Shown piece by piece: positions 1 through 13,920 of a DNA stretch of 21,599 bases (position 1 is the first letter of the stretch; each line of letters starts with the position of its first letter). Both the position numbers and the translations under genes were made by a program. The DNA comes from a virus. Its lineage: Duplodnaviria > Heunggongvirae > Uroviricota > Caudoviricetes. Location of the stretch: positions 1 to 21,599 of IMG/VR virus record IMGVR_UViG_2695420596_000007; one strand, given 5' to 3'. The notes beneath the pieces are model-generated. The model saw only the letters and a list, made by a program, of their open reading frames with translations, made no database searches and was not told where the DNA came from.

Positions 1-1257
1 GTGCTTACCGATACAAAATTAAAAAACCTCAAGCCGCAGGACAAACTGTACAAGGTCTCCGATCGTGACGGGCTGTATGTAGCTGTGCTTACGTCAGGCA
101 CGGTCTCGTTTCGCTATGACTACCGTATCAACGGTCGCCGCGAAACACTGGTAATCGGGCAGTATGGGCGTGACGGTATCAGCCTAGCAGAAGCGCGAGA
201 AGAACTGATTGCTGCAAAGAAGCTGCTTAAAGCAGGCCAGTCGCCGGCTGCGGCTAAACGTGACGGTATCAAAAAGATTCGTGGTGCCGAGACGTTTGCG
301 GTACATACCGACAGTTATATGAAACACGTCATCCTGGCTGACAGTACCCGCGCAATGAAGCAGGCGGTGATCGACCGTGACATACTTCCGGTTCTTGGCA
401 ACAAAATGATGGCTGAAATTACCACATCGATGGTTCGTGATTTGTGTGACCGGATTGTCGAACGCGGTGGCCGGGCAACAGCAGTGCAGGCCAGGGAGAT
501 CATCAGCAGCGTATACCGTCACGCCAATGACCGTGGTCATGGTTTGTTTAATCCTGCGGCTGATATTAAGCCTTCATCTATCGCCATATTTAAACCACGA
601 GAGCGAACGCTGACACCAGAAGAAATTGGTCTTTTCTTCCGCACGCTGGATGCCATTGGTGCTATGGGCACTATGAAAATGGCTTTAAAACTGCTGCTTA
701 TCACTATGGTTCGTAAGGGCGAATTCACCAATGCAACGTGGGATGAAATAGATTTTAAAAAATGGACATGGACAATTCCTTCAGACCGCATGAAGGGAAG
801 CCGGGCGCATGTTATTTACCTGCCTAAACAGGCACAGGATATATTGGTCGGGTTGCAGATGTGCGCTGGTGGAAGTGAATATCTGGTTCCTGGTCGTTAC
901 AATTTCCGGAAGCCATTATCTAATGCCGCGCTGAACTCTCTGATCGACAGAACGGTGAAAATAATAAATGAAGATGGTGAGCATATTCAGGACTTCACCG
1001 TACACGATATGCGCCGTACAGCAAGTACGTTGTTGCATGAGGCTGGTTATCCTTCAGACTGGATTGAAAAGGCTCTGGCACATGAGCAGAAAGGTGTGCG
1101 CGCCGTATATAACAAAGCGGAATACGCCAGACAGCGCGCCTACATGTTGCAGCAGTGGGCCGATATGATTGATTCCTGGATTAACGGGGAGCATACGGAT
1201 CTGATTCCGTTCTCCCCGTCGAAGTTTGAGAAGTGGATGGAAGACAGTAATAAATAA
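1..1257 (+). CDS. int: Phage integrase, tyrosine recombinase (P4-like). The ORF starts with GTG at the window edge, so the true start may lie a few codons upstream
   Basis: 418-aa ORF; N-terminus LTDTKLKNLKPQDKLYKVSDRDGLYV is typical of P4-family integrase arm-binding domains; C-terminal HDMRRTASTLLHEAGY and YNKAEY fit the catalytic R-H-R-Y region. Confidence 0.9.
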   Translation: MLTDTKLKNLKPQDKLYKVSDRDGLYVAVLTSGTVSFRYDYRINGRRETLVIGQYGRDGISLAEAREELIAAKKLLKAGQSPAAAKRDGIKKIRGAETFAVHTDSYMKHVILADSTRAMKQAVIDRDILPVLGNKMMAEITTSMVRDLCDRIVERGGRATAVQAREIISSVYRHANDRGHGLFNPAADIKPSSIAIFKPRERTLTPEEIGLFFRTLDAIGAMGTMKMALKLLLITMVRKGEFTNATWDEIDFKKWTWTIPSDRMKGSRAHVIYLPKQAQDILVGLQMCAGGSEYLVPGRYNFRKPLSNAALNSLIDRTVKIINEDGEHIQDFTVHDMRRTASTLLHEAGYPSDWIEKALAHEQKGVRAVYNKAEYARQRAYMLQQWADMIDSWINGEHTDLIPFSPSKFEKWMEDSNK

Positions 1258-1259
1258 TT

Positions 1260-1919
1260 CTATCCTTCCTGGACTTTGGTAAGCGTCAGATTTCCGCAGA
1301 ACACTGCGCCGGTGTCGATGTACATCTGGTTTGCATACACCAGTGGGTGATGTGCTGGCGTATGACCGAAGATGAACAAATCGGCACCGGTTATCTCCGA
1401 GACAATACCGTCCTGCGCGTCGCTAACCCGCTCACGATTCCATATCACCATTTCTTCTGGTACTGGCTTATCGAATGCGTATTCGTTGTGCGGGTAGTCT
1501 GCGTGACAGATGACGAGCTTCTTATTGCCGGTAACTAGTTCGATAATCATCGGGAGGTTGGTAATCTTTGGCAGAAGGTATTTGAGTTGCACATCCTGCT
1601 CAGAATCAAGTTGGTGCCACCATCCACCGCCGTTTGACATCCAATGTCCGAAACTTCCGCCGTTGACCAGTGCATCCAGCATCATCTGCTCATGGTTGCC
1701 ACGAACAGCTCGGAACCACGGCATAGTAATCAAATCCAGGCATTCGACGTTTTCAGCGCCGCGGTCAACAAGGTCACCAACGGAAATAAGTAAATCGCGC
1801 GCCGGGTCGAATGAAACTTTGTCGAGTTCGTTCATCAGCAGCGTGTAGCACCCATGCAGATCGCCGACGACGAAGATATTGCACCAGTCAGCGCCATTGA
1901 TGCGTTGATATAGGTTCAT
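1260..1919 (-). CDS. Ser/Thr protein phosphatase, lambda-PPase-like metallophosphoesterase
   Basis: 219-aa ORF with the three metallophosphatase motifs GDLHG, GDLVDRG and GNHE; near-collinear with phage lambda phosphatase as recalled; start overlaps the stop of the upstream methyltransferase gene (ATGA). Confidence 0.85.
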
Positions 1920-4965: not shown

Positions 4966-5261
4966 GCCGCGTCCCTCTGTCCATCAAGCTGATCAGCCAG
5001 ATCCCAGCGGGCGATAATTGCCATTGCCTCTCGCCGATAGGCATCCATCAGTTCTTCGAACTCAGGGCTGTCTTTAGCTGCTTCCAGCACTTCCTGACGA
5101 ACGCCTTTGCCTATTACAACGTCGAAAGTTGAGGACAGTTGATGAAGTCGGATACTCTCAATCAGTTCAACTTGTCGGTCATATAGCTGTTCTGACAGGC
5201 GGTAGTCCTTGTCGAATGCCAGCATGATTTTTTGAAGATTTTTCTGCTGATTAACGTTCAT
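4962..5261 (-). CDS. Hypothetical protein, possibly a Gam-like host-nuclease inhibitor (start placed at MNVNQQ, ATG 5261)
   Basis: SD GGAGGG 6 nt upstream of ATG 5261; DSPEFEELMDAYRREAMAII loosely resembles the lambda Gam C-terminal region as recalled; the position before exo/bet matches the lambda gam slot. Confidence 0.45.
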   Translation of the reverse strand: MNVNQQKNLQKIMLAFDKDYRLSEQLYDRQVELIESIRLHQLSSTFDVVIGKGVRQEVLEAAKDSPEFEELMDAYRREAMAIIARWDLADQLDGQRDAA

Positions 5262-5263
5262 TA

Positions 5264-5416
5264 TCAGCCCTCCCATATCTCGTTATCGTTGGCCACATCG
5301 CGAGCTTCTTTGCTGACGAAAGCCCATTTAATGCCTTCCTGTAAGGTGCGGAACTTCCAGCTCATGAATCCGCATGCAGTAACGCAGTACCAACCGTTGA
5401 TGATTTTCCACTGCAT
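5264..5416 (-). CDS. Small 50-aa ORF, first gene of the leftward early operon (below the ORF-track threshold)
   Basis: Hand-translated MQWKIINGWYCVTACGFMSWKFRTLQEGIKWAFVSKEARDVANDNEIWEG; SD GAGGT upstream; stop is followed 2 nt later by the next start. Confidence 0.3.
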   Translation of the reverse strand: MQWKIINGWYCVTACGFMSWKFRTLQEGIKWAFVSKEARDVANDNEIWEG

Positions 5417-5435
5417 AACTTGTTACCTCGGTCTG

Positions 5436-5512
5436 TTACCGTTGAGGTAATAATTATGCGTATCTGGTTTGATGTCAATAGGTATGAGTTGAAAAAATTA
5501 CCCATTAGGTAA
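5436..5512. promoter_or_regulatory. Two copies of the TTACC-N5-GGTAA palindrome (5436-5450, 5498-5512; centres 62 bp apart) flanking a sigma70-like promoter for the leftward early operon
   Basis: TTACCgttgaGGTAA and TTACCcattaGGTAA read directly; minus-strand -35 TTGACA (plus coordinates 5473-5478) lies between them, with a weaker -10-like TAATTA. Confidence 0.6.
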
Positions 5513-5524
5513 TCATATAGGCAA

Positions 5525-5547
5525 TAAAAAAGCCGCCAGAAGGCGGC
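5525..5547 (-). terminator. Rho-independent terminator downstream of the repressor gene
   Basis: Stem GCCGCC/GGCGGC with a 4-nt loop, followed on the minus strand by a T-run. Confidence 0.6.
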
Positions 5548-5569
5548 TTACTTACTGAAAAATATGATT

Positions 5570-6154
5570 TTATTGTTTGTTTTTTTCGTTCTGGTTGATG
5601 ACAAATTCAATGTAACTTTCGATCTTTGCTTTCTCGGTTTCGGGTAACAATGCGTAGCGCGAGCGATCATAGTTGATGGTCGCAGGGTCGTGCGGGTGAA
5701 TCAGTAATTCATAGCCGTGACGCCCGAATGCGGATGCAACATTCTCCAGGGTGGAAATGGAAACGCTGACCTCATTGTTTAACAGGCGGCTAATTGTCAC
5801 CTGGGCGACGCCGGATGCGCGGTGAAGTTTTCCCTGTGTTGAAAGGTCGCGGCTTTCGCTCATCCAGCGTTCCAGGTTGTGAGCCGCCAGCTGACCAATG
5901 TCGCTTGGGCCGACAGGCTGAAAACCTTCCTGAGAAAGCGAACGATCGATATCAAGCCAGTTACGGGGTTTATTGGCGGCAGCTTCAATTTTTCGCGCAA
6001 CCTGGTCGCCGATAACCTTCTTGCCAAGAGCCCAGCGGTTTACCAGATTTGCCTGAGTTCCAAGTTTTTCTGCCATCCGCGTCTGAACACCATTGAATTC
6101 ACGGTCGATCAAGTCGTTGAGATTTTGCCTGCGGACGTCCTGGATACTTTTCAT
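5570..6154 (-). CDS. Prophage repressor candidate: XRE-family protein with two HTH regions and no LexA-like S24 peptidase domain
   Basis: 194-aa ORF; N-terminal HTH (MAEKLGTQANLVNRWALGKK) and a second HTH-like segment (VAQVTISRLLNNEVSVSISTLENVASAFG); no GDSM or Ser-Lys autocleavage signature; divergent from a Cro-like gene. Confidence 0.7.
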   Translation of the reverse strand: MKSIQDVRRQNLNDLIDREFNGVQTRMAEKLGTQANLVNRWALGKKVIGDQVARKIEAAANKPRNWLDIDRSLSQEGFQPVGPSDIGQLAAHNLERWMSESRDLSTQGKLHRASGVAQVTISRLLNNEVSVSISTLENVASAFGRHGYELLIHPHDPATINYDRSRYALLPETEKAKIESYIEFVINQNEKNKQ

Positions 6155-6209
6155 TTTCTGGAAAATCGCCTCATATATGAATCAGTAGATGATTCAATTT
6201 AAAGCAATA

Positions 6210-6272
6210 TTACCCAACAGGTAAATGCACCTCATAGGTAACTATCCTTGATTTTTGTTACCTTATGGGTGA
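6210..6272. promoter_or_regulatory. Three-site operator cluster between the repressor and Cro-like genes (6210-6224 TTACCcaacaGGTAA; 6227-6241 GCACCtcataGGTAA; 6258-6272 TTACCttatgGGTGA)
   Basis: Palindromes read directly; the arrangement parallels a lambda OR1-3 style divergent control region. Confidence 0.6.
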
Positions 6273-6308
6273 ATATTTATTATCTGAAATAAATATCAGG
6301 CAATAGCT

Positions 6309-6539
6309 ATGAGCGATAACGGACATTTCGATTTCAAAAAGCACTGGCTTGCACTTACTCCGGATGAGCGTGAAGCCTTCGCACAGGAAGCCGGAACGAC
6401 GAGTCACTATATCCAGACTCACTTAACAGGTAAGCGCAAAATGCCAGGTAAAGTATTGATGAATGGGCTTTTTAAAGCCTGTAAAACAAGACAATGGCTG
6501 CGCTCAAAAGCAGAACTGGCATACTTCTTCTACTCATGA
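6309..6539 (+). CDS. Cro-like small DNA-binding regulator
   Basis: 76-aa ORF divergent from the repressor; HTH-like segment EAFAQEAGTTSHYIQTHLTGKRKMP. Confidence 0.55.
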   Translation: MSDNGHFDFKKHWLALTPDEREAFAQEAGTTSHYIQTHLTGKRKMPGKVLMNGLFKACKTRQWLRSKAELAYFFYS

Positions 6540-6560
6540 TATCCAGCCACAACCCTCTGT

Positions 6561-6586
6561 AGACCGCCATCCGGCGGTCTTTTCAT
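6561..6586 (+). terminator. Rho-independent terminator after the Cro-like gene (tR1-like position)
   Basis: Stem AGACCGCC/GGCGGTCT with a 4-nt loop, followed by TTTT. Confidence 0.65.
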
Positions 6587-6594
6587 ATCTATTC

Positions 6595-6609
6595 GTACCT
6601 TAAAGGTAA
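6595..6609. promoter_or_regulatory. Palindrome GTACCttaaaGGTAA (variant of TTACC-N5-GGTAA) just after the terminator
   Basis: Read directly; core TACC-N5-GGTA is perfect. Confidence 0.45.
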
Positions 6610-6689
6610 CAAAAAACCAAATCTGGTTGATCTTTTTTTTGTGTCAGCACAAAATAACCGTAATCCCAATACTAATAACAGGGCTTACC

Positions 6690-6890
6690 ATGGAAATCAT
6701 TACACGTATTGATGCCGCAAAGCGCGGACTTAAACGCTACTACACCGGAAAACCATGTAAGCATGGACATGACAGTGAACGCTGGGTTTACAACGGGCAC
6801 TGTGTTGAGTGCACCATGGAATCAAACCGTCGCATCAGGGCAGAGATTAAGCAGATCATGATTAATTCCTCCCCACAACATTCAAGCTGA
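6690..6890 (+). CDS. Small Cys/His-rich (zinc-ribbon-like) protein; start placed at MEIITRI rather than the listed 6627
   Basis: KPCKHGHDSERWVYNGHCVEC contains a C-x-H..C-x2-C pattern; the listed N-terminal extension looks like non-coding read-through. Confidence 0.4.
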   Translation: MEIITRIDAAKRGLKRYYTGKPCKHGHDSERWVYNGHCVECTMESNRRIRAEIKQIMINSSPQHSS

Positions 6891-6905
6891 TAGCGGAGAT
6901 TAATC

Positions 6906-7697
6906 ATGAGCAGACATGCAACAGATTGGGCCTGGGAGACAGATCCAGGTAGCTCGTCATTAAAGCTCATACTGCTCTCGATGGCTGACAGAGCCGATGA
7001 ATATAACCTCTGCTACCCCAGCATAGAACGCCTCGTTAAAGACACTTGCCTGAATAAAAAAACCGTGCAGGCCGGGCTTATATCGCTCATGAAAATGGGG
7101 CTTATTTCAGATACCGGAGAGAGAAAGGGAGCGACAAAAAGAGTGCGGGTTTTCTCTCTTAATATAACCAAAAACGGGAACATTAAAGGCAACCGGGAAG
7201 GGGGGAATGAACCCGAAAACGGTAATGTTCCCGAAAACGGGAATATACCCAAAAACGGGATGTTGAATGATCCCAAAAACGGGATCCAGAACCAGTCATA
7301 TAACCAGTCATTTAACCAAGAGAGGGAGAGCGGGACAAAAACCGGGAATTCTGTGCCTCATGACCCCGGCGCAAACAACGCCGTGATGAATAACTTTGTT
7401 CCTCCTGGTGGGCCAGGGCAATTAGGCAAATTTGTCATGCATGAACAATGGCAGCCATCAGATGACTTTCTTCGGAAAAGCTCATTGCAGGGGATCTACC
7501 TGGACAGTCTGCCAACGGCACAGGAACTTGCAGAGTTCAGAATTTACTGGATGGCTGAGGGTAAGGCATACCATCAGGCACAGTGGGAGCAGAAGCTGGC
7601 AAGGCGGCTGCAGATTAGCAGACAGAAGCAATCAACATTATCTGATAACAACGTTCCGCACTGGAACAGCCCTGAAGCATGGGAGGATTTCTTGTGA
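6906..7697 (+). CDS. Replication initiator, lambda O-like (N-terminal HTH, iteron-encoded linker, C-terminal domain)
   Basis: 263-aa ORF; SD GGAGA 7 nt upstream; N-terminal winged-HTH-like segment; low-complexity PENGNVPENGNIPKNG linker encoded by DNA iterons; immediately followed by a P-like gene. Confidence 0.75.
   Translation: MSRHATDWAWETDPGSSSLKLILLSMADRADEYNLCYPSIERLVKDTCLNKKTVQAGLISLMKMGLISDTGERKGATKRVRVFSLNITKNGNIKGNREGGNEPENGNVPENGNIPKNGMLNDPKNGIQNQSYNQSFNQERESGTKTGNSVPHDPGANNAVMNNFVPPGGPGQLGKFVMHEQWQPSDDFLRKSSLQGIYLDSLPTAQELAEFRIYWMAEGKAYHQAQWEQKLARRLQISRQKQSTLSDNNVPHWNSPEAWEDFL
7168..7285. repeat. Iteron array inside the initiator gene (five copies of CCC(G/A)AAAACGG(G/T)A at about 7168, 7212, 7230, 7248 and 7272; the middle three 18 bp apart); candidate replication origin
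   Basis: Direct repeats read from sequence, followed by a duplicated AACCAGTCAT segment at 7291-7313. Confidence 0.7.
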
Positions 7698-8479
7698 ACA
7701 ACGTTTTTACCGCGATACAAAACCGTGACGGAGAAGCCCTTTCTCGCATGTCAGGTTATGAGCATCAGTACGTCAACAATGACAATGTGGTTAACATGTC
7801 AGCAGAGAGGCTTGTTGATGCCCTTTTCAAACAGCTGAAACAACTGTTTCCGGCGGCAGTGGTAACCAACCTGAAGACGCCAGAGCAGGAAGTAGCTGCA
7901 AAACAGCAGTGGATTGCTGCGTTTGCCGAAGGGGGGATCCGAACCCGTGAACAGGTTTCTGCTGGTATGCGCCACGCCCGCGCCAGTGATTCTCCGTTCT
8001 GGCCGTCGCCAGGGCAATTCATCAAGTGGTGCAAAGACAGCAAGATGGTTCTTGGCGTCACCATTGACGATGTGATGACGGAGTTTCACCGGTACAGCAA
8101 GGAAAAAAGTTTATATCCTGGTGGTCCCGAAAGATTCCCGTGGCGGCATCCGGTTATGTACTGGGTCGTATGTGATACCCGCCGTGCAATGTATCAGCGC
8201 CAGCTTAGCGAGATAGAGGTTGAGAAACACGCGCGCAGGCTGCTCGATGATTGGGCGAAAAAGGTGGCTTCCGGACAGCAGATACCCGATCCGGTGATCA
8301 GCATACAGGCAAAGCCAGAACCCATGAGTACGCCTCCGGACACAGGGAGAGACGTTTACCATCCACCAGGGCGAAGTTTCGGGTGCATGCCTAACGCCGC
8401 CACCCTTGGGGGAATAACACCGGCGCAGTGGCTGATGGAGGAATACAGGCGAGGAAAGGCGGCAGGATTTATCAAGTAA
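7679..8479 (+). CDS. Replication protein P-like (helicase loader); the real start may be GTG 7694 after SD GGAGGA
   Basis: 266-aa ORF; EQVSAGMRHARASDSPFWPSPGQFIKWCKD closely parallels lambda P (EQVNAGMRVARRQNRPFLPSPGQFVAWCRE) as recalled. Confidence 0.8.
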   Translation: MGGFLVNNVFTAIQNRDGEALSRMSGYEHQYVNNDNVVNMSAERLVDALFKQLKQLFPAAVVTNLKTPEQEVAAKQQWIAAFAEGGIRTREQVSAGMRHARASDSPFWPSPGQFIKWCKDSKMVLGVTIDDVMTEFHRYSKEKSLYPGGPERFPWRHPVMYWVVCDTRRAMYQRQLSEIEVEKHARRLLDDWAKKVASGQQIPDPVISIQAKPEPMSTPPDTGRDVYHPPGRSFGCMPNAATLGGITPAQWLMEEYRRGKAAGFIK

Positions 8480-8516
8480 TACCAGCGCGATAGCGCATTT
8501 TTTTACGCTTCGATAA

Positions 8517-8593
8517 TTACCTGCCAGGTAATAAAATATTCTAAAATCTATTGATTTTGTGTCTTATGTGGTTTTTAATTACCTCAGGGGTAA
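8517..8593. promoter_or_regulatory. Two copies of TTACC-N5-GGTAA (8517-8531, 8579-8593; centres 62 bp apart) flanking a promoter-like TTGATT-N17-TTTAAT; the downstream site overlaps the RBS of the gene starting at 8597
   Basis: TTACCtgccaGGTAA and TTACCtcaggGGTAA read directly. Confidence 0.6.
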
Positions 8594-8596
8594 ATC

Positions 8597-8941
8597 ATGA
8601 GAAAACAGATACAGGCTCTTGGTCGACTCAAAACAGGCCAGATGAACAAAACAGAATCTGCGTATTGCCAGCACCTTGAGCTGCGTAAACGTGCAGGAGA
8701 AATCGTCTGGTATCGATTTGAGGGTATCAAGCTGCGGTTAGCTGACAACACGTTCTATACGCCCGATTTTGCTGTGATGCTCGCCACCGGCGAGATGGAA
8801 CTGCACGAAGTGAAAGGTTTCTGGACCGACGACGCCAGGGTGAAAACCAAAGTCGCCGCAGATCAGTATCCGTTCCGAATCATCGGGGTAACGGTTAAAC
8901 CAAAGAAAGCAGGTGGTGGCTGGAATATCGAAGAGTTCTGA
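8597..8941 (+). CDS. DUF1064-family phage protein
   Basis: 114-aa ORF with the layout recalled for DUF1064 (ELRKRAGEI..YTPDF..HEVKG..YP). Confidence 0.6.
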   Translation: MRKQIQALGRLKTGQMNKTESAYCQHLELRKRAGEIVWYRFEGIKLRLADNTFYTPDFAVMLATGEMELHEVKGFWTDDARVKTKVAADQYPFRIIGVTVKPKKAGGGWNIEEF

Positions 8942-9002
8942 ATCGACGATCTTTTTAGTTATCAATGTAATCAATAAGTTATGTGGATAAGCGAGGGTAA
9001 AG

Positions 9003-9632
9003 ATGGAAAGTAATATCAAAGGGTTAGTTTCCGCCGGGCATGAGATGGCTTCGGAACTGAAAGCAGAATGTGGTGCCGTTGATATGCGCAGCGTGGCAAA
9101 GCTGATCAGCGATTTGGCAACCGGTAGCGGTAAAGCTTTGTCTCGTGCTCGATCAGATAAACAGGCCAGACTTCGCGATATTGATCAACGAATCCGGCAG
9201 GCACAAGAACGCCTGGAATTTTCCCGTAACGCGTTGGCACCGCACGAGCCTGGCGGTCAGTTTTTTGAAGCTCAAGCAGAACTGGCTCGGAGACAGCAGG
9301 CAGAAAGTGAACTTAATGCTCAGGCTGTTTCATTCTATAAAACAGCAGAGGTCAGGACGCCAGACGAAGTAGCTCCTTTTGAGCCTGATAAAATATTGCA
9401 ACAGGCAGAACAAAAAATGATGTCAGATCAGGCAGGAGATATTGATCTGCGCATAGCTGAAGACTCGTTGCTTGAATCACCTGACATGATAATCACCGTG
9501 CTGGATGATGATGGTAATCCACAATCGCGCAGTGCGCGTGAAGTACTGGATGAAGCGAACAGGGAAAGTGAGCAGGCAATACAGGATTCCAGCCTGTTTG
9601 ATGTCGCTGTGGCGTGTTTCTTGAGAGGTTAA
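9003..9632 (+). CDS. Hypothetical acidic coiled-coil protein (209 aa)
   Basis: Strong SD (GAGGGTAAAG) before the ATG; no recognisable catalytic motif; highly acidic C-terminal half. Confidence 0.55.
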   Translation: MESNIKGLVSAGHEMASELKAECGAVDMRSVAKLISDLATGSGKALSRARSDKQARLRDIDQRIRQAQERLEFSRNALAPHEPGGQFFEAQAELARRQQAESELNAQAVSFYKTAEVRTPDEVAPFEPDKILQQAEQKMMSDQAGDIDLRIAEDSLLESPDMIITVLDDDGNPQSRSAREVLDEANRESEQAIQDSSLFDVAVACFLRG

Positions 9633-9637
9633 ATTAA

Positions 9638-12112
9638 ATGAGACAGGAATGTATACAAGCGGTCCAGCAGGCGGCGCAGCGCACGTTAACGGCGCGAGAA
9701 ATACAGAACATTGAAGACCGCATTTATCGAAATATGCGCTCCATTGCTCGTGATGACCCGATGTCGTGGCGACAACTTTCCGAATCAGAGCGGCTATATC
9801 GAGCATCACAATTGGCATCTGAAGAATTACAGCGAGAAGCGGCATTAAAGAAACGTCGTGTGGCCCTCACTATAGCCGCACGTCAGAGATTGGATAAATT
9901 TATCAATAGCTATCAAGGGGCTGATGGGAAACTCGGTGCTCTTAACCGTACTATTGCTTTTAATGCAGACGGTAAATCGAATTTCCTCTCTGTTGAGTCC
10001 AGAACAAAAGCCACTCGTGATTATGCATTGAGTCAATTGCAAGAGGCATTTGAAGCAGTTGACCCTCGCTTTTTTGGCCTGTTTGAAGATGAAGCTGGCG
10101 TGCGTGACCTGGTATATGAAATGCGAGGGCAAAATACTGGCAATGCTAAAGCAAGAAAAGGTGCTAAGGCGTGGAGAGAAGTGACAGATCTACTGCGCCG
10201 CCGGTTTAATGATGCTGGTGGGGACATTGGCTATCTCGAAAACTGGGGGATCCCTCAACATCATTCTATGGAAAAGGTTGGGGCGGTATCAAAGGATAAG
10301 TGGGTTAGCGATGTTATAGGTAAGCTGGATCGCAAATATTATATCCGAGCCGATGGACAACTGATGAACGATGCCGAGTTGTCTGCATTTCTTGGAGAGG
10401 CTTATAACACGATCGCTACTGGTGGGCTGAATAAGCTTACTGATACCGGAATGCGAATTTCCGGCGCACGTGCTAACCGTGGTAATGCATCACGACAGAT
10501 ACATTTCAAAGATGCAGATTCCTATCTGCAATATCAGCAACTTTATGGCGATCGCTCTCTATGGGAAATCATGGTCGGTCACCTGGAAGGTATCAGTAAA
10601 GATATTGCACTGGTGGAAACATATGGCCCAAACCCCGATCATGTTTTCCGCTCTCTTCTTGATCAGGTGAAGGCAGAAACGGCAACAGCTAACCCGAATA
10701 AAACCGGTAAAGTCGAGCGGCTGGCGAACAACACAGAGAATCTGTACAACTTTATTTCCGGAAAGACACAGCCTGTAGCGAATCCGCACATCGCGCGATG
10801 GTCTGACAATATCCGCAACTGGCTGGTTGCCAGCAGACTCGGATCCGCGTTGCTGTCATCGTTCTCTGATCTTGGAACCATGTATCTGTCTGCGAAGGTT
10901 ACCAACCTTCCAATGAACCAGTTATTCCGCAACCAGCTTGAAGCTATGGACCCAACGAACCGTACAGAACTTGCGCGGGCGCGCCGCGCTGGACTGGCGA
11001 TGGAATCTCTACTTGGCAGCGTTAACCGCTGGGCGATGGATAATATGGGGCCGTCTGTGTCTCGTTGGGCGGCAACGGCGGTAATGCGTGCCAGTGGGCT
11101 TACAGCATGGTCAGATGCGCACAAGCGCGCCTATGGCGTAACCATGATGGGAAGCTTGGGAGAAGTAGTGTCACGGACACCAGACCTTCGTAGCCTCGAT
11201 GACTCTGATTTTCGTATCCTGAAAAGTAAAGGGATTACTGACACAGACTGGAGCGTATGGAAGCTGGCGCAACAGGAGGACTGGGGGAACGGTAATAATA
11301 CGATGCTGACACCGGAAAGCATTATGCGTATCCCTGATTTAGCAGTTAAACATCTTGGTGAGCCTGAACGCGTGAAATTTGAGGCAATGCGTAAACTGCT
11401 CGGTGCCGTAACTGAAGAAGTTGATATGGCTGTTATTACACCGGGAGCACGTGAGCAACTGATAACCGGTTCTGGTATTCAGCGTGGAACATGGAAGGGT
11501 GAATTAACGAGAAGTGTTTTCCTGTTTAAATCGTTCCCTATCTCGGTAGTTATGCGTCACTGGCATAGAGCTATGGGGATGCCGTCTGCTGGTGGGCGCG
11601 CAGCATATATAGCAACGTTTTTAGCAAGCACAACCATGCTTGGTGCTCTTTCCATGCAGATTACTGATCTTATTAATGGGAGAAGTCCAAAGGAAATGAC
11701 CGGTGACCACATGGTTAAATTCTGGATAAATGCATTTTTAAAAGGTGGTGGGGCAGGGTTGTACGGTGATTTTCTTTTCTCTGATCACACTAGGTACGGA
11801 AGCGGCGCGCTGGCGTCGATGCTTGGCCCGGTAGCTGGTCTGGTTGATGACGTAGTGAAGATTGCTCAGGGCATACCGTTAAATGCTGTGGAAGGGAAGA
11901 ATGAGCAGACTGGTGGTGATCTGGTGAAGCTGGGGAAGGGGCTGATGCCAGGTGCGAATCTCTGGTACTTGAAGGCGGCTCTCGATCACATGATCTTTAA
12001 CCAGATGCAGGAGTATTTTTCACCAGGCTATTTGCGTAAAATGGAGCAACGTTCGAAGAAAGAGTTTAACCAGACATACTGGTGGCGACCTCAGGATGTC
12101 ACTCCGCAATAA
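9638..12112 (+). CDS. Large hypothetical protein (824 aa), function unknown; has a hydrophobic, glycine-rich C-terminal region
   Basis: Long uninterrupted ORF with SD GAGAGG; no Walker A, HExxH or other motif recognised; C-terminal AAYIATFLASTTMLGALSMQI and GGGAGLYGDFLF segments. Confidence 0.6.
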   Translation: MRQECIQAVQQAAQRTLTAREIQNIEDRIYRNMRSIARDDPMSWRQLSESERLYRASQLASEELQREAALKKRRVALTIAARQRLDKFINSYQGADGKLGALNRTIAFNADGKSNFLSVESRTKATRDYALSQLQEAFEAVDPRFFGLFEDEAGVRDLVYEMRGQNTGNAKARKGAKAWREVTDLLRRRFNDAGGDIGYLENWGIPQHHSMEKVGAVSKDKWVSDVIGKLDRKYYIRADGQLMNDAELSAFLGEAYNTIATGGLNKLTDTGMRISGARANRGNASRQIHFKDADSYLQYQQLYGDRSLWEIMVGHLEGISKDIALVETYGPNPDHVFRSLLDQVKAETATANPNKTGKVERLANNTENLYNFISGKTQPVANPHIARWSDNIRNWLVASRLGSALLSSFSDLGTMYLSAKVTNLPMNQLFRNQLEAMDPTNRTELARARRAGLAMESLLGSVNRWAMDNMGPSVSRWAATAVMRASGLTAWSDAHKRAYGVTMMGSLGEVVSRTPDLRSLDDSDFRILKSKGITDTDWSVWKLAQQEDWGNGNNTMLTPESIMRIPDLAVKHLGEPERVKFEAMRKLLGAVTEEVDMAVITPGAREQLITGSGIQRGTWKGELTRSVFLFKSFPISVVMRHWHRAMGMPSAGGRAAYIATFLASTTMLGALSMQITDLINGRSPKEMTGDHMVKFWINAFLKGGGAGLYGDFLFSDHTRYGSGALASMLGPVAGLVDDVVKIAQGIPLNAVEGKNEQTGGDLVKLGKGLMPGANLWYLKAALDHMIFNQMQEYFSPGYLRKMEQRSKKEFNQTYWWRPQDVTPQ

Positions 12113-12121
12113 GGAACAACA

Positions 12122-12535
12122 ATGAAGGAATTATTGCTGTTATCGGTATTTTTGATATCCGCTTGCTCGACATCCTATGATGTTTATGACGGTGTTGATA
12201 AGGCATATTGCGACAAAGTTAAAATGGATTTTTCTCTTGCCAAGACGGCGAAGGATAGTTGTATTGATCACTACGTCAAGACTTATACCAAGCCAGCCTC
12301 ATCGGCATCTGATATTGCTGAAGGTGCTGTGTTTGAGTGTAACAAGGTGATATCCATCGCAGCGAGTTCTTCATACGATGCTGCTGTATGTGCAATGGCT
12401 GAAAGAAACGGCATGTCAGTGCAAAAAATTAATAGCATGATAAGCAGTAATGACGAAGCCAAAATAAGAACTGATATCAGCTCGGTGAAAAAAGATGCCA
12501 TGAACAGAGTTGTAAAATATCAGTCATCTTTATAA
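12122..12535 (+). CDS. Putative lipoprotein (137 aa), function unknown
   Basis: Signal peptide with lipobox-like LISAC at residues 11-15; SD AAGGAA; starts 10 nt after the 824-aa gene. Confidence 0.6.
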   Translation: MKELLLLSVFLISACSTSYDVYDGVDKAYCDKVKMDFSLAKTAKDSCIDHYVKTYTKPASSASDIAEGAVFECNKVISIAASSSYDAAVCAMAERNGMSVQKINSMISSNDEAKIRTDISSVKKDAMNRVVKYQSSL

Positions 12536-12551
12536 GTCGTGACATGTCACA

Positions 12552-12575
12552 GGCCGCTCTTGCGGCCTTGTTTTT
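12552..12575 (+). terminator. Rho-independent terminator ending the rightward operon
   Basis: Stem GGCCGC/GCGGCC with loop tctt, followed by TTGTTTTT. Confidence 0.65.
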
Positions 12576-12614
12576 AACGAATGCCACCGCCGCCCGGACG
12601 GGAATCCGCAGGCA

Positions 12615-12635
12615 CAAAAAAGCCCGCAGAGCGGG
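12615..12635 (-). terminator. Rho-independent terminator for the leftward membrane-protein pair
   Basis: On the minus strand GCCCGC-tct-GCGGGC followed by TTTTTT. Confidence 0.65.
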
Positions 12636-12640
12636 CTTAT

Positions 12641-12973
12641 TCAGTTATTTACTTTCTTTGGCACTATTGCTGATAATGAGATCATAAAGCCAGTTAGAGC
12701 AGCAATAATTAATGGGAATATGAAAGCATCTGAAGTTCTCAGTGGATTCTTCATATCGAACAGAATAACAATGAAGAATGCGCTGGTTGCAAAAGTAGAT
12801 GATGAATAAACCTCATTCATCTTGTATTGCAACTTATCCAAAGAAAAAGGAGGCGTATCTTTGCAAACGGCATCCCATATCAGATGAACAGCAAGATAAG
12901 CAATGCACAGTATGAAATAAAACCTTGTCAATTGCTGTGCATCTCTGGGCGCAAGCCAAGATAAATCAGGCAT
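12641..12973 (-). CDS. Putative inner-membrane protein (110 aa), translationally coupled to the upstream small peptide
   Basis: Several hydrophobic segments; ATG lies 1 nt after the upstream stop. Confidence 0.5.
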   Translation of the reverse strand: MPDLSWLAPRDAQQLTRFYFILCIAYLAVHLIWDAVCKDTPPFSLDKLQYKMNEVYSSSTFATSAFFIVILFDMKNPLRTSDAFIFPLIIAALTGFMISLSAIVPKKVNN

Positions 12974-12974
12974 T

Positions 12975-13163
12975 TTAGTTGGCTAACTTCTTTGCGGCAT
13001 AGATAGCAGGGAGTGCAACAGCACCAGCTACAGCAAATGCATAGGCTATCCCAGCTGTAACAGTAAAAGCAGGAAGCAGGAAAGATAATCCGCCTGGTAG
13101 GGCAAAGCCTAAGCCCGCTCCGCCAATAATGGCCTTCAGCAATGTAATGATGTTGATTTCCAT
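12975..13163 (-). CDS. Small glycine/alanine-rich membrane peptide (62 aa)
   Basis: MEINIITLLKAIIGGAGLGFALPGGLSFLLPAFTVTAGIAYAFAVAGAVALPAIYAAKKLAN: two predicted TM segments with small-residue-rich motifs; SD GAGGGGG upstream. Confidence 0.5.
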   Translation of the reverse strand: MEINIITLLKAIIGGAGLGFALPGGLSFLLPAFTVTAGIAYAFAVAGAVALPAIYAAKKLAN

Positions 13164-13189
13164 GTTTCCCCCTCATGTAAACTCTCGGT

Positions 13190-13204
13190 TTACCTTTGGG
13201 GTAA
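13190..13204. promoter_or_regulatory. Palindrome TTACCtttggGGTAA upstream of the small membrane peptide gene
   Basis: Read directly. Confidence 0.5.
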
Positions 13205-13269
13205 TAGTACGCTATTCACCTGCAATCTGTACAGAATTATTTAAAGGCACATCCCTGTGCCGCCGCTCG

Positions 13270-13920
13270 TCAGAAGAACCCTGCCTTGTCGTTGATGTAC
13301 TCCGCGTGTGTCTGGATATCACGCAGGCATTTACTCACACCGACGATGTAGCAGAACATGGTGGTCAGCTCCGCCGCCGCGCCCGATACGTCGTGCCCGT
13401 CTTCCTGTAACTTGTTCAGCAGATTCATCAGCAGTGAGTTCTCCGTCAGGCCGAGAACACCAGACGGCGAGTGAATCAGGCTGCGGTAGCCGGGCTTCAG
13501 CGGGGCGCTGTATTCTTTTTTGTCTTCCAGCTTGATCGCCTCCATAATGGCGGGCATGAAGCCTGACAAGACCTTCTCCACTTTTGTTTCTTGTTGTCTT
13601 AAACGTTTCTCGCATTCAATGAAGTAGCGTCGTACCTGACGACCTTTTTCGTTACGCTCGACCATCGCCAGTTCTTTGGCTGTATCGAGGGTGAGGTGGT
13701 AGTCTTTTGCAGGACGTCCTCTGCCTATTTTTTCCCGAACTTGGGAAATAATCATAAAGTCTTGATTTTCAACGAAACCATATTCAGTAATTCGTTCGAC
13801 AATCCACGAAGCAAATCGCTTACCCACATCGAGGAAAGTGTGTAAATCACGGGCATTAACGAGAAGAGCGGTTTCGTTGGATATAGTGCCGTTGAATACG
13901 GGGATGAGTTGAGCGTTCAT
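13270..13920 (-). CDS. Phage antirepressor (N-terminal Ant/Bro-like domain plus C-terminal antirepressor domain)
   Basis: 216-aa ORF; SD GGAGA; its C-terminal region is homologous to the small ORF at 14238-14495. Confidence 0.75.
   Translation of the reverse strand: MNAQLIPVFNGTISNETALLVNARDLHTFLDVGKRFASWIVERITEYGFVENQDFMIISQVREKIGRGRPAKDYHLTLDTAKELAMVERNEKGRQVRRYFIECEKRLRQQETKVEKVLSGFMPAIMEAIKLEDKKEYSAPLKPGYRSLIHSPSGVLGLTENSLLMNLLNKLQEDGHDVSGAAAELTTMFCYIVGVSKCLRDIQTHAEYINDKAGFF

What the first reader, a model, noticed from the sequence alone, without database searches (positions are those of the whole stretch)
9003..12535. Three-gene operon of uncharacterised proteins (209-aa acidic, 824-aa, lipoprotein) under operator control
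These genes sit between the replication genes and the antirepressors, a slot where lambdoid phages carry accessory cargo. None shows a motif I can assign: the 824-aa protein has no Walker or metal-binding signature but has a hydrophobic glycine-rich C-terminal region, the 209-aa protein is strongly acidic and coiled-coil, and the third is a lipoprotein. The operon is preceded by two TTACC-N5-GGTAA sites and closed by a strong terminator. It may be a new superinfection-exclusion or anti-phage module, or displaced virion internal/ejection proteins as in the P22 order gp7-gp20-gp16 before immI and tailspike. I cannot distinguish these from sequence alone.
Basis: inference. Interest (0 to 1): 0.65.

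Follow-up and report, generated by a model that had tools for sequence, protein, structure and literature searches.

The report
Leftover phage DNA-ejection genes after deletion
The "three-gene operon" is what an 18.8-kb deletion left of the virion DNA-ejection genes in a defective phiV10/epsilon15-like prophage of E. coli: a truncated fusion ORF, one intact known virion protein gene and a small accessory lipoprotein gene. It is ordinary.

Summary
The three ORFs exist at the stated coordinates, but they are not a natural accessory operon. The window is a complete but defective 20.4-kb Uetakevirus (phiV10/epsilon15-like) prophage between guaA and yfgI of E. coli. Relative to intact phage phiv142-3, 18,792 bp are missing, running from the late-early genes through terminase, portal, capsid, tail and the core proteins. 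The breakpoint lies at window 9118-9121, in a 4-bp CAAC microhomology.

- **209-aa ORF:** an in-frame deletion chimera. It joins the first 39 codons of an early gene to the last 170 codons of the 600-aa epsilon15-gp16 homolog.
- **824-aa ORF:** an intact homolog of phiV10 gp20 (97% identity) and epsilon15 gp17 (27% identity, full length). This is the large internal-core/ejection protein, published as the T7 gp16 (IVP-D) counterpart. My own profile and fold tests agree only weakly.
- **137-aa ORF:** a genuine lipobox protein with low G+C and no known relatives. It always sits directly after the gp17 homolog, in a slot that holds other small membrane proteins in related phages.

The TTACC-N5-GGTAA sites are real, but they belong to the preceding DUF1064 gene and to a genome-wide set. 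The terminator is confirmed. Only the lipoprotein remains a possible exclusion factor.

The parts
8510..8593 (+). Promoter-like site (TCGATA-16-TAAAAT, 8510-8537) overlapped by palindrome TTACCTGCCAGGTAA (8517-8531), with a second palindrome TTACCTCAGGGGTAA (8579-8593) just before the DUF1064 start codon. Since the deletion this is the nearest upstream control region of the three ORFs.
   Evidence: The same pair sits before the DUF1064 homolog Orf38 in intact phage phiv142-3 (29902, 29964).
8597..8941 (+). DUF1064 / Holliday-junction-resolvase-like early gene. It is the true first gene behind the two palindromes.
   Evidence: Pfam PF06356 E 2.9e-07; phrog_190 E 7e-43.
9003..9117 (+). 5' part of the chimeric 209-aa ORF: start codon, ribosome-binding site and first ~39 codons of an early gene of unknown function (phiv142-3 Orf37, 266 aa; phrog_250).
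   Evidence: BLASTP to Orf37 is near-identical over residues 1-39, then diverges. phrog_250 positions 1-68 match. DNA collinear with phiv142-3 up to window 9121.
9118..9121 (+). Deletion junction: a 4-bp microhomology (CAAC) shared by both parental sequences.
   Evidence: Three-way DNA alignment. Overlapping BLAST segments 8401-9121 and 9118-12115. 18,792 bp are missing relative to phiv142-3, record positions 10582-29373.
9122..9632 (+). 3' part of the chimeric ORF: the last 170 codons (residues ~431-600) of the 600-aa epsilon15-gp16 homolog (phiV10 p19), a presumptive internal virion protein.
   Evidence: 93% identity to phiV10 p19 residues 423-600. phrog_1145 positions 415-594 of 594. The phiV10 annotation names epsilon15p16 as the homolog.
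9638..12112 (+). Intact 824-aa homolog of phiV10 p20 / epsilon15 gp17: the large internal-core/ejection protein (IVP-D class), all-alpha, with a Gly-rich hydrophobic C-terminal region.
12122..12535 (+). 137-aa predicted lipoprotein (signal peptide, lipobox Cys15, Ser at +2; four more invariant Cys). It has low G+C (0.394 against 0.49 for the neighbouring gene) and is accessory cargo at the end of the late operon.
   Evidence: phrog_8691. Only 17 clusters among 5.8 billion proteins. Always directly after the gp17 homolog. AF2 pLDDT 85, helical, no informative fold match.
12551..12576 (+). Intrinsic terminator closing the late operon (7-bp stem with 6 G-C pairs, then TGTTTTT).
   Evidence: A terminator is annotated at the equivalent place in phiV10.

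Best explanation
The locus is the surviving 3' end of the late (virion) operon of a phiV10/epsilon15-like podophage prophage that lost about 18.8 kb by illegitimate recombination at a 4-bp microhomology.

In intact relatives the order is: T7-gp14-like core protein, gp15 homolog (836-937 aa), gp16 homolog (600 aa), gp17 homolog (824 aa), a small envelope protein, terminator, antirepressor region, tailspike. By homology to epsilon15 and T7, these proteins are packaged as an internal core above the portal. At infection they are expelled through the tail to build the channel that carries DNA across the envelope. The 824-aa protein is the counterpart of T7 gp16, and its C-terminal hydrophobic, glycine-rich segments are the likely membrane-inserting part (inferred).

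The deletion fused the first 39 codons of an early gene in frame to the last 170 codons of the gp16 homolog, giving the 209-aa ORF. It also placed the remnant behind the early-right transcription unit and its two palindromic sites. Terminase, portal, capsid, tail tube and the other core proteins are gone, so the prophage cannot make particles, and the fusion ORF and the gp17 gene have no virion to act in.

The lipoprotein is separate accessory cargo. It is exported to the envelope, so it cannot be a virion component. Its most likely role (inferred, not shown) is to modify the host envelope late in infection or in lysogens, for example by blocking ejection from related phages.
For: - **Junction:** window 5269-9121 is collinear with phiv142-3 33249-29374, and window 9118-12116 with 10581-7583. 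The three-way alignment shows the switch at CAAC.
- **Chimera:** residues 1-39 match Orf37 and residues 40-209 match phiV10 p19 431-600 at 93%. PHROG hits are split the same way.
- **Whole prophage in view:** guaA lies left of the integrase and yfgI/yfgH lie right of the lysis genes. No terminase, portal or capsid ORFs are present.
- **Junction is private and real:** 0 of 5,426 complete E. coli genomes span it. The exact chimeric protein is on only two contigs, an NCBI assembly and an independent Logan assembly of run ERR124658.
- **Identity of the 824-aa protein:**. The family has 5,114 representative clusters.
- **Context in intact relatives:** a PF24072 T7_gp14 protein lies upstream, and the gp15 homolog carries an SLT domain in Cedecea.
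- **Literature:** epsilon15 gp17 is the T7 IVP-D homolog by HMM-HMM comparison, and gp15/gp16 are presumptive IVP-C (PMC4819975). The epsilon15 internal core is assigned to gp17 (PMC5850374). The T7 core-to-channel mechanism is described in PMC11784390 and PMC8954989.
- **Second sign of decay:** the acyltransferase gene is frameshifted.
Against: - Published roles for epsilon15 gp17 differ. One assigns it to the internal core; Guichard et al. 2013 (not held, cited in PMC12391199) place it in the tail tube.
- Both contigs that carry the junction derive from the same isolate's reads, so read-level confirmation is missing.
- The 824-aa ORF is fully intact. This fits a recent deletion but does not exclude retention for some other use.
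- No function has been shown for the lipoprotein.
Confidence: 0.88

Rival explanations
1. It is a genuine three-gene accessory operon, a new superinfection-exclusion or anti-phage module carried as cargo between the replication and antirepressor genes and switched by its own operators.
For: The three ORFs are tightly spaced and co-oriented, with a terminator at the end. Palindromic sites lie upstream. None of the three has a Pfam assignment.
Against: The first ORF is a deletion chimera found in one isolate only. The second is a conserved virion protein of thousands of podophages. There are no PADLOC hits. In every intact relative these genes lie in the late structural operon after the gp14-gp15-gp16 homologs. 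The palindromes belong to the DUF1064 gene in intact phages.
Confidence: 0.03
2. The junction is an assembly artefact and the strain really carries an intact 39-kb prophage.
For: The junction is seen in a single isolate.
Against: Two assemblies made independently, an NCBI contig of 151,830 bp and a Logan contig of 61,033 bp, give the same join. The join is at a 4-bp microhomology, far shorter than any assembler k-mer (inference), and is flanked by unique sequence.
Confidence: 0.04
3. The remnant is retained because it is useful. The lipoprotein, possibly with leftover gp17, protects the host against related podophages by interfering with their ejection channel at the envelope. This would be analogous to P22 SieA, which sits in the same map position.
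For: - The gp17 and lipoprotein ORFs are intact, while 18.8 kb around them is lost and the acyltransferase is frameshifted.
- The slot after the gp17 homolog always holds a small envelope protein: phiV10 p21 (46 aa, 2 TM), phiv142-3 Orf12 (118 aa, multi-TM), or this lipoprotein.
- P22 has sieA directly after ejection gene 16, and SieA acts on the gp20/gp16 conduit (PMC10883804).
- The lipoprotein gene has low G+C, typical of acquired cargo.
Against: - No promoter-like site lies in front of the lipoprotein gene; it starts 9 nt after the gp17 stop codon. Expression in a repressed lysogen is therefore doubtful.
- There is no similarity to SieA, no informative PDB fold match and no PADLOC model.
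- The deletion is private to one isolate, so there is no sign of selection for the remnant.
Confidence: 0.15

Closest known systems
Escherichia phage phiV10 p19-p20-p21 and Salmonella phage epsilon15 gp16-gp17 (genus Uetakevirus)
   Same: The 824-aa protein is 97% identical to phiV10 p20 and a full-length homolog of epsilon15 gp17 (27%, E 5e-97). The last 170 residues of the 209-aa ORF are 93% identical to phiV10 p19. The downstream order is the same: terminator, antirepressor, tailspike, O-antigen acyltransferase, lysis genes.
   Different: The first 430 codons of the gp16 homolog and everything upstream as far as the early region are deleted. The small gene after gp17 is a 137-aa lipoprotein instead of phiV10's 46-aa two-helix membrane protein.
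T7 gp16 (internal virion protein D) and the tetrameric ejection proteins of T7-like phages (PDB 9JYY, 9VVP, 8VB2)
   Same: It is a large all-alpha internal protein encoded last in the gp14-gp15-gp16 series. It has hydrophobic C-terminal segments and a shared FKSF-containing stretch (824-aa residues 615-672 against T7 gp16 1092-1150). These are the top-ranked structural neighbours (PMC4819975).
   Different: It has no N-terminal SLT transglycosylase domain. It is 824 aa against 1,318 aa. All similarity scores are weak. This lineage has four core genes (gp14-17 homologs) rather than three.
Phage P22 late-operon end: genes 7-20-16, sieA, mnt/arc/ant, gene 9, gtr
   Same: The architecture is the same: ejection proteins, then a small envelope-protein slot, then antirepressor, tailspike and O-antigen modification.
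   Different: There is no sequence similarity to SieA. P22 sieA is on the opposite strand with its own promoter, whereas the lipoprotein gene here is co-oriented and directly behind gp17. P22 gp16 scores only marginally against the family profile.
Phage exclusion lipoproteins (T5 Llp, Cor of phi80/N15)
   Same: It is a small phage-encoded lipoprotein gene next to the genes for host entry (my own knowledge for Llp and Cor; lipobox).
   Different: No sequence or fold match appears in the PDB or PADLOC searches. The predicted fold is an all-helical bundle of 122 mature residues with four conserved Cys. No phenotype is known.
Defective (cryptic) prophages of E. coli formed by internal deletion
   Same: Integrase, immunity, replication and lysis genes are retained. 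The morphogenesis genes are lost, a fusion ORF sits at the breakpoint, and there is an additional frameshifted gene.
   Different: Nothing notable. The deletion is private to one isolate.

Membership tests
epsilon15 gp17 / phiV10 p20 family (PHROG 684, 'virion structural protein') | Full-length sequence homology to the family | tested here: met
   phrog_684 positions 1-831 of 840, E 0. 97% to phiV10 p20, 31% to BcepC6B gp17 and 27.4% to epsilon15 gp17, all over ~100% of the length.
epsilon15 gp17 / phiV10 p20 family (PHROG 684, 'virion structural protein') | Position at the end of the core-protein series (gp14-like, gp15, gp16, gp17) and ahead of the tailspike region | tested here: inconclusive
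   Met downstream: antirepressor and tailspike follow. Met in all intact relatives. In this window the upstream series is deleted except for 170 codons of the gp16 homolog.
epsilon15 gp17 / phiV10 p20 family (PHROG 684, 'virion structural protein') | Protein present in purified virions | not testable with these tools
   Literature only: the epsilon15 core is assigned to gp17 (PMC5850374, citing Jiang 2006). This prophage cannot make virions.
T7 gp16 / internal virion protein D superfamily | Detectable profile similarity to T7 gp16 | tested here: inconclusive
   hhalign gives probability 5.5% over 58 columns. The family HMM scores T7 gp16 at 11.8 bits, above 500 of 500 shuffles, while T7 gp14/gp15 and P22 gp7/gp20 do not exceed their shuffles. 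The profile search against PDB sequences finds nothing. Published HMM-HMM work reports the link (PMC4819975).
T7 gp16 / internal virion protein D superfamily | Fold similarity to solved ejection-protein structures | tested here: inconclusive
T7 gp16 / internal virion protein D superfamily | N-terminal lytic transglycosylase (SLT) domain | tested here: not met
   No SLT hit in the 824-aa protein or in 40 diverse family members. T7 gp16 has it (E 1.7e-31). In a Cedecea relative the SLT domain sits on the gp15 homolog instead.
T7 gp16 / internal virion protein D superfamily | Hydrophobic C-terminal segments | tested here: met
   Two segments with Kyte-Doolittle means above 1.2 lie at ~655-680 and ~722-745. 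Gly is 12.5% in residues 641-824.
Bacterial lipoproteins | N-terminal signal peptide ending in a lipobox with invariant Cys | tested here: met
   MKELLLLSVFLISA|C. Cys15 is invariant in all 10 aligned homologs, down to 55% identity. UniProt names the identical protein 'Lipoprotein'. Lipidation itself is not testable here.
Known anti-phage defence or exclusion proteins (PADLOC models, P22 SieA, solved exclusion lipoproteins) | Sequence or fold similarity to a known member | tested here: not met

The most novel reading that the evidence does not exclude
The slot immediately after the last ejection-protein gene of epsilon15-like podophages is a hot spot for interchangeable small envelope proteins: a lipoprotein here, a 2-TM peptide in phiV10 and a multi-TM protein in phiv142-3. 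These may act like P22 SieA, blocking assembly of the ejection channel of related incoming phages. This 137-aa protein would then be the first lipoprotein shown to exclude a short-tailed phage at the ejection step.
Probability: 0.2. Interest if true: 0.45.

Novelty: already known. Interest (0 to 1): 0.12.

Why it matters
It matters little. The result removes a false lead: an apparent novel operon is a deletion scar in a cryptic prophage, and its large gene is a well-populated, already described virion protein family. Two things are of modest use. The gp17 family still lacks a Pfam model and a solved structure, and the confident AF2 model (pLDDT 84) with weak links to T7-type ejection proteins could guide work on epsilon15-like genome delivery. 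The variable envelope-protein slot after gp17, including this narrowly distributed lipoprotein, is a reasonable place to look for exclusion functions.

Tried and rejected
- **Family libraries:** Pfam, NCBIfam and PADLOC scans of all three ORFs gave nothing significant. The lipoprotein's Linker_histone hit (E 0.0011) is below the curated cut-off and was rejected as chance.
- **PDB sequence searches:** single sequences and a 40-member profile gave nothing meaningful.
- **Lipoprotein in sequenced phages:** tblastn against the phage collection found no match, although a PHROG family exists.
- **Junction searches:** exact 36-mer scans of genome, viral and metagenome collections found no other carrier. 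The genome collection holds one genome per species, so this says little. The search of 5,426 complete E. coli genomes is the informative negative.
- **SieA homology:** rejected for the lipoprotein and for the neighbouring 110-aa membrane ORF.
- **Acyltransferase:** comparison with those of phiV10, Cedecea and Citrobacter prophages found no similarity, so it is a different allele. The frameshift was shown with Pfam coordinates instead.
- **Papers not held:** Guichard 2013, Jiang 2006 and Chang 2010 could not be read, so their content is cited only through reviews.
- **Scan limitation:** the promoter and terminator counts for 8300-13300 do not exceed shuffled expectation. Individual sites are therefore supported by position and conservation, not by the scan alone.
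Full report
**What is in the sequence.**
All are on the + strand, separated by 5 and 9 nt. The descriptive points hold.
- The 209-aa product is acidic, with 39 D+E against 25 K+R.
- The last 184 residues of the 824-aa product are 12.5% glycine and contain two hydrophobic stretches.
- The 137-aa product starts MKELLLLSVFLISA|C, a signal peptide with a lipobox whose Cys is invariant in all homologs.
- A hairpin plus T run follows at 12551-12568.

**What the window is.**
The whole window matches Uetakevirus genomes (phiV10, phiv142-3 and relatives) at 94-98% in blocks.
- The gene order is: integrase, RecET, repressor, Cro-like gene, DnaT/P-like replication genes, DUF1064, the three ORFs, AntA antirepressor, tailspike, acyltransferase, holins, endolysin and spanin.
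- guaA lies immediately left of the integrase, and yfgI/yfgH lie immediately right of the lysis genes.
- The entire prophage is therefore in view. It is 20.4 kb long, where relatives are about 39 kb.

**The deletion.**
- Window 5269-9121 is collinear with phiv142-3 33249-29374. Window 9118-12116 is collinear with phiv142-3 10581-7583.
- 18,792 bp of the relative are absent. The loss covers the rest of Orf37, the EA22/Eaa-like genes, both terminase subunits, portal, protease, capsid, tail proteins, the T7-gp14-like protein, the gp15 homolog and the first 430 codons of the gp16 homolog.
- A three-way alignment shows the window following Orf37 up to ...GATTTGGCAAC and then continuing as phiV10 p19 from CAACCGGTAGCGG... 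The two parents share only CAAC, at window 9118-9121.
- This is the signature of illegitimate recombination, not of homologous exchange.

**The 209-aa ORF is a chimera.**
- Residues 1-39 equal the N-terminus of phiv142-3 Orf37, a 266-aa early protein of unknown function.
- Residues 40-209 equal residues 431-600 of phiV10 p19 at 93% identity.
- PHROG hits split the same way: phrog_250 positions 1-68 and phrog_1145 positions 415-594 of 594.
- phiV10 p19 is annotated as the epsilon15 gp16 homolog.

**Is the junction real?**
- None of 5,426 complete E. coli genomes spans it. All 532 matching genomes break at the same base.
- The exact 209-aa sequence (WP_072179437.1) occurs on only two contigs: an NCBI contig of 151,830 bp and an independently made Logan assembly of run ERR124658, 61,033 bp.
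- A 4-bp overlap is far too short to cause an assembler join (inference).
- I therefore take the deletion as real and private to one isolate. Read-level confirmation remains to be done.
- A second sign of decay is the acyltransferase gene. It is split into two frames covering Pfam PF01757 positions 3-91 and 96-321.

**The 824-aa protein.**
- It is full length and 97% identical to phiV10 p20 ('virion structural protein'). It is 92% identical to the homolog in Enterobacter phage Tyrion and 44% to those in Pseudomonas phages. It is 31% identical to BcepC6B gp17 and 27.4% over its whole length to epsilon15 gp17 (E 5e-97).
- The family is very large, with 5,114 representative clusters at E ≤ 1e-3. 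Some members carry the domain at the C-terminus of 2,000-2,900-aa proteins.
- It has no Pfam or NCBIfam model.
- In intact relatives the gene is always the last of a series: a PF24072 T7_gp14-family protein, an 836-937-aa protein (with an SLT domain in a Cedecea prophage), a 565-600-aa protein, and then this one.
- Hardies et al. identified epsilon15 gp17 as the homolog of T7 internal virion protein D (gp16) by HMM-HMM comparison, with gp15 and gp16 as presumptive IVP-C (PMC4819975).
- A review assigns the epsilon15 internal core to gp17 (PMC5850374). Another source places gp15 and gp17/16 in the packaging/injection device (PMC12391199, citing Guichard 2013).

**My own tests of the T7 gp16 link.**
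All agree in direction but are weak.
- hhalign aligns residues 615-672 with T7 gp16 1092-1150 through a shared FKSF motif, at probability 5.5%.
- A family HMM scores T7 gp16 at 11.8 bits, above all 500 shuffles. T7 gp14, T7 gp15, P22 gp7 and P22 gp20 are not above their shuffles.
- The AF2 model is confident (pLDDT 84, pTM 0.85) and all-helical.
- Foldseek ranks 'core proteins of mature T7' (a 1,223-residue chain) and 'core proteins of bacteriophage E1004' first and second of 350,542 chains. E is only 0.015-0.022 and TM scores are low.
- The SLT domain of T7 gp16 is absent.
- I therefore file the protein firmly in the epsilon15 gp17 family. I treat it only provisionally as a distant member of the T7 gp16 class.

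**How it works (by homology).**
In T7 the core proteins sit on the portal inside the head. They are expelled at infection and reassemble into a channel across the outer membrane, periplasm and inner membrane (PMC11784390, PMC8954989). Epsilon15 also has a core and forms a tube during infection (PMC5850374). The hydrophobic, glycine-rich C-terminus of the 824-aa protein is the likely membrane-inserting part (inference). In this prophage there is no capsid to carry the protein, so the gene is a functionless leftover unless a related helper phage is present.

**The lipoprotein.**
- Its G+C is 0.394, against 0.49 for the gp17 gene.
- Only 17 clusters exist among 5.8 billion proteins, all from Escherichia, Enterobacter, Citrobacter and Cedecea. 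The identical sequence is on at least 1,000 contigs.
- 19 of 5,426 complete E. coli genomes carry it after the gp17 homolog. No sequenced phage in the collection has it.
- In every context examined it follows the gp17 homolog directly, including a Cedecea homolog at 55% identity.
- The same slot holds a 46-aa two-helix membrane peptide in phiV10 and a 118-aa multi-helix membrane protein in phiv142-3.
- The AF2 model is confident (pLDDT 85) and helical, but has no informative neighbour in the PDB. There is no PADLOC hit.
- P22 has the same map: ejection genes 7-20-16, then sieA, then mnt/arc/ant, tailspike and gtr. SieA blocks the gp20/gp16 conduit (PMC10883804). The analogy is positional only, because there is no similarity to SieA.
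- No promoter-like site precedes the lipoprotein gene, which has a good ribosome-binding site 9 nt after the gp17 stop. In intact phages it is therefore probably a late gene.
- An exclusion or receptor-masking role is my best guess, at roughly one in five to one in three. It is untested.

**The 'operators'.**
- TTACC-N5-GGTAA is real. There are 8 exact sites in the window against 0.02 expected, and 11 allowing one mismatch.
- The sites at 8517 and 8579 overlap a promoter-like site and abut the DUF1064 start codon, not the ORF at 9003.
- Intact phiv142-3 has 10 sites against 0.04 expected, all intergenic. They lie at the repressor/Cro region, the left operon, the DUF1064 gene, upstream of terminase, upstream of the head genes, around the antirepressor and upstream of the tail fibre.
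- One site upstream of the tailspike is kept even in Cedecea prophages.
- In intact phages the gp16 and gp17 genes lie in the late operon, behind the sites near terminase. The deletion removed those sites and put the remnant behind the DUF1064 pair. 'Under operator control' is therefore a by-product of the deletion.

**Verdict.**
The first, a new defence operon, is not supported.
- The thing is a deletion scar in a cryptic prophage carrying an already known virion protein gene.
- Only the lipoprotein and the variable slot it occupies retain some exploratory value.

Noticed in passing
window 5436, 5498, 6210, 8517, 8579, 13190, 14192, 14572 (one-mismatch sites at 6258, 6595, 15601); L014 (phiv142-3) 4758, 5138, 6153, 23656, 26472, 29902, 29964, 32294, 33006, 33068: The palindrome TTACC-N5-GGTAA marks the 5' side of nearly every transcription unit of these phages: left and right early operons, the DUF1064 unit, terminase, head genes, antirepressor and tailspike. 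It often occurs in pairs 62 bp apart. A copy upstream of the tailspike is kept in Citrobacter/Enterobacter and Cedecea prophages (L004, L007-L009). It looks like a single regulator with genome-wide sites rather than a classical OL/OR-only repressor. The binding protein is unknown.
   Followed up: partly
window 17263-18343, - strand: The O-antigen acyltransferase (Acyl_transf_3) gene is split by a frameshift. ORF 17930-18343 covers Pfam positions 3-91 and ORF 17263-18042 covers positions 96-321. Its G+C is 0.317. It is a pseudogene or a sequencing error, and a different allele from the phiV10 oac gene.
   Followed up: partly
window 12641-12973, - strand, with terminator-like hairpin 12638-12620: A 110-aa ORF with three hydrophobic segments (phrog_36716, unknown function, G+C 0.375) converges on the lipoprotein gene. 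It lies between the ejection genes and the antirepressor, on the opposite strand, the same place and orientation as sieA in P22. It has no sequence similarity to SieA.
   Followed up: partly
L001 15005-15145 (phiV10 p21); L012 2595-2951 (phiv142-3 Orf12); window 12122-12535: The slot directly after the gp17 homolog holds unrelated small envelope proteins in different Uetakeviruses: a 46-aa 2-TM peptide, a 118-aa multi-TM protein or a 137-aa lipoprotein. It is bounded by the gp17 stop codon and the late terminator.
   Followed up: partly
L004 1129-3753 (Cedecea prophage) compared with L003 2521-5034 (E. coli prophage): The gp15 homolog carries an SLT lytic transglycosylase domain in the Cedecea prophage (E 7e-16) but not in the E. 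coli one. In T7 this domain sits on gp16, so the cell-wall-cutting domain has moved between core proteins.
   Followed up: no
Proteins P0157 (2,126 aa), P0160 (1,707 aa), P0166 (2,078 aa), P0210 (2,913 aa), P0262 (2,085 aa): In some metagenomic relatives the whole gp17-like region forms the C-terminal part of proteins of 1,700-2,900 aa. This recalls the fused internal virion proteins described for N4 gp50 and H66 gp60.
   Followed up: no
window 1241-1913 and about 5261-5269, compared with phiv142-3: There are further mosaic differences from phiv142-3. A Metallophos phosphatase gene (1260-1919) replaces the phiv142-3 sequence next to the integrase, and the ~1-kb Orf45 of phiv142-3 is absent between the recombination genes and the repressor.
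   Followed up: no
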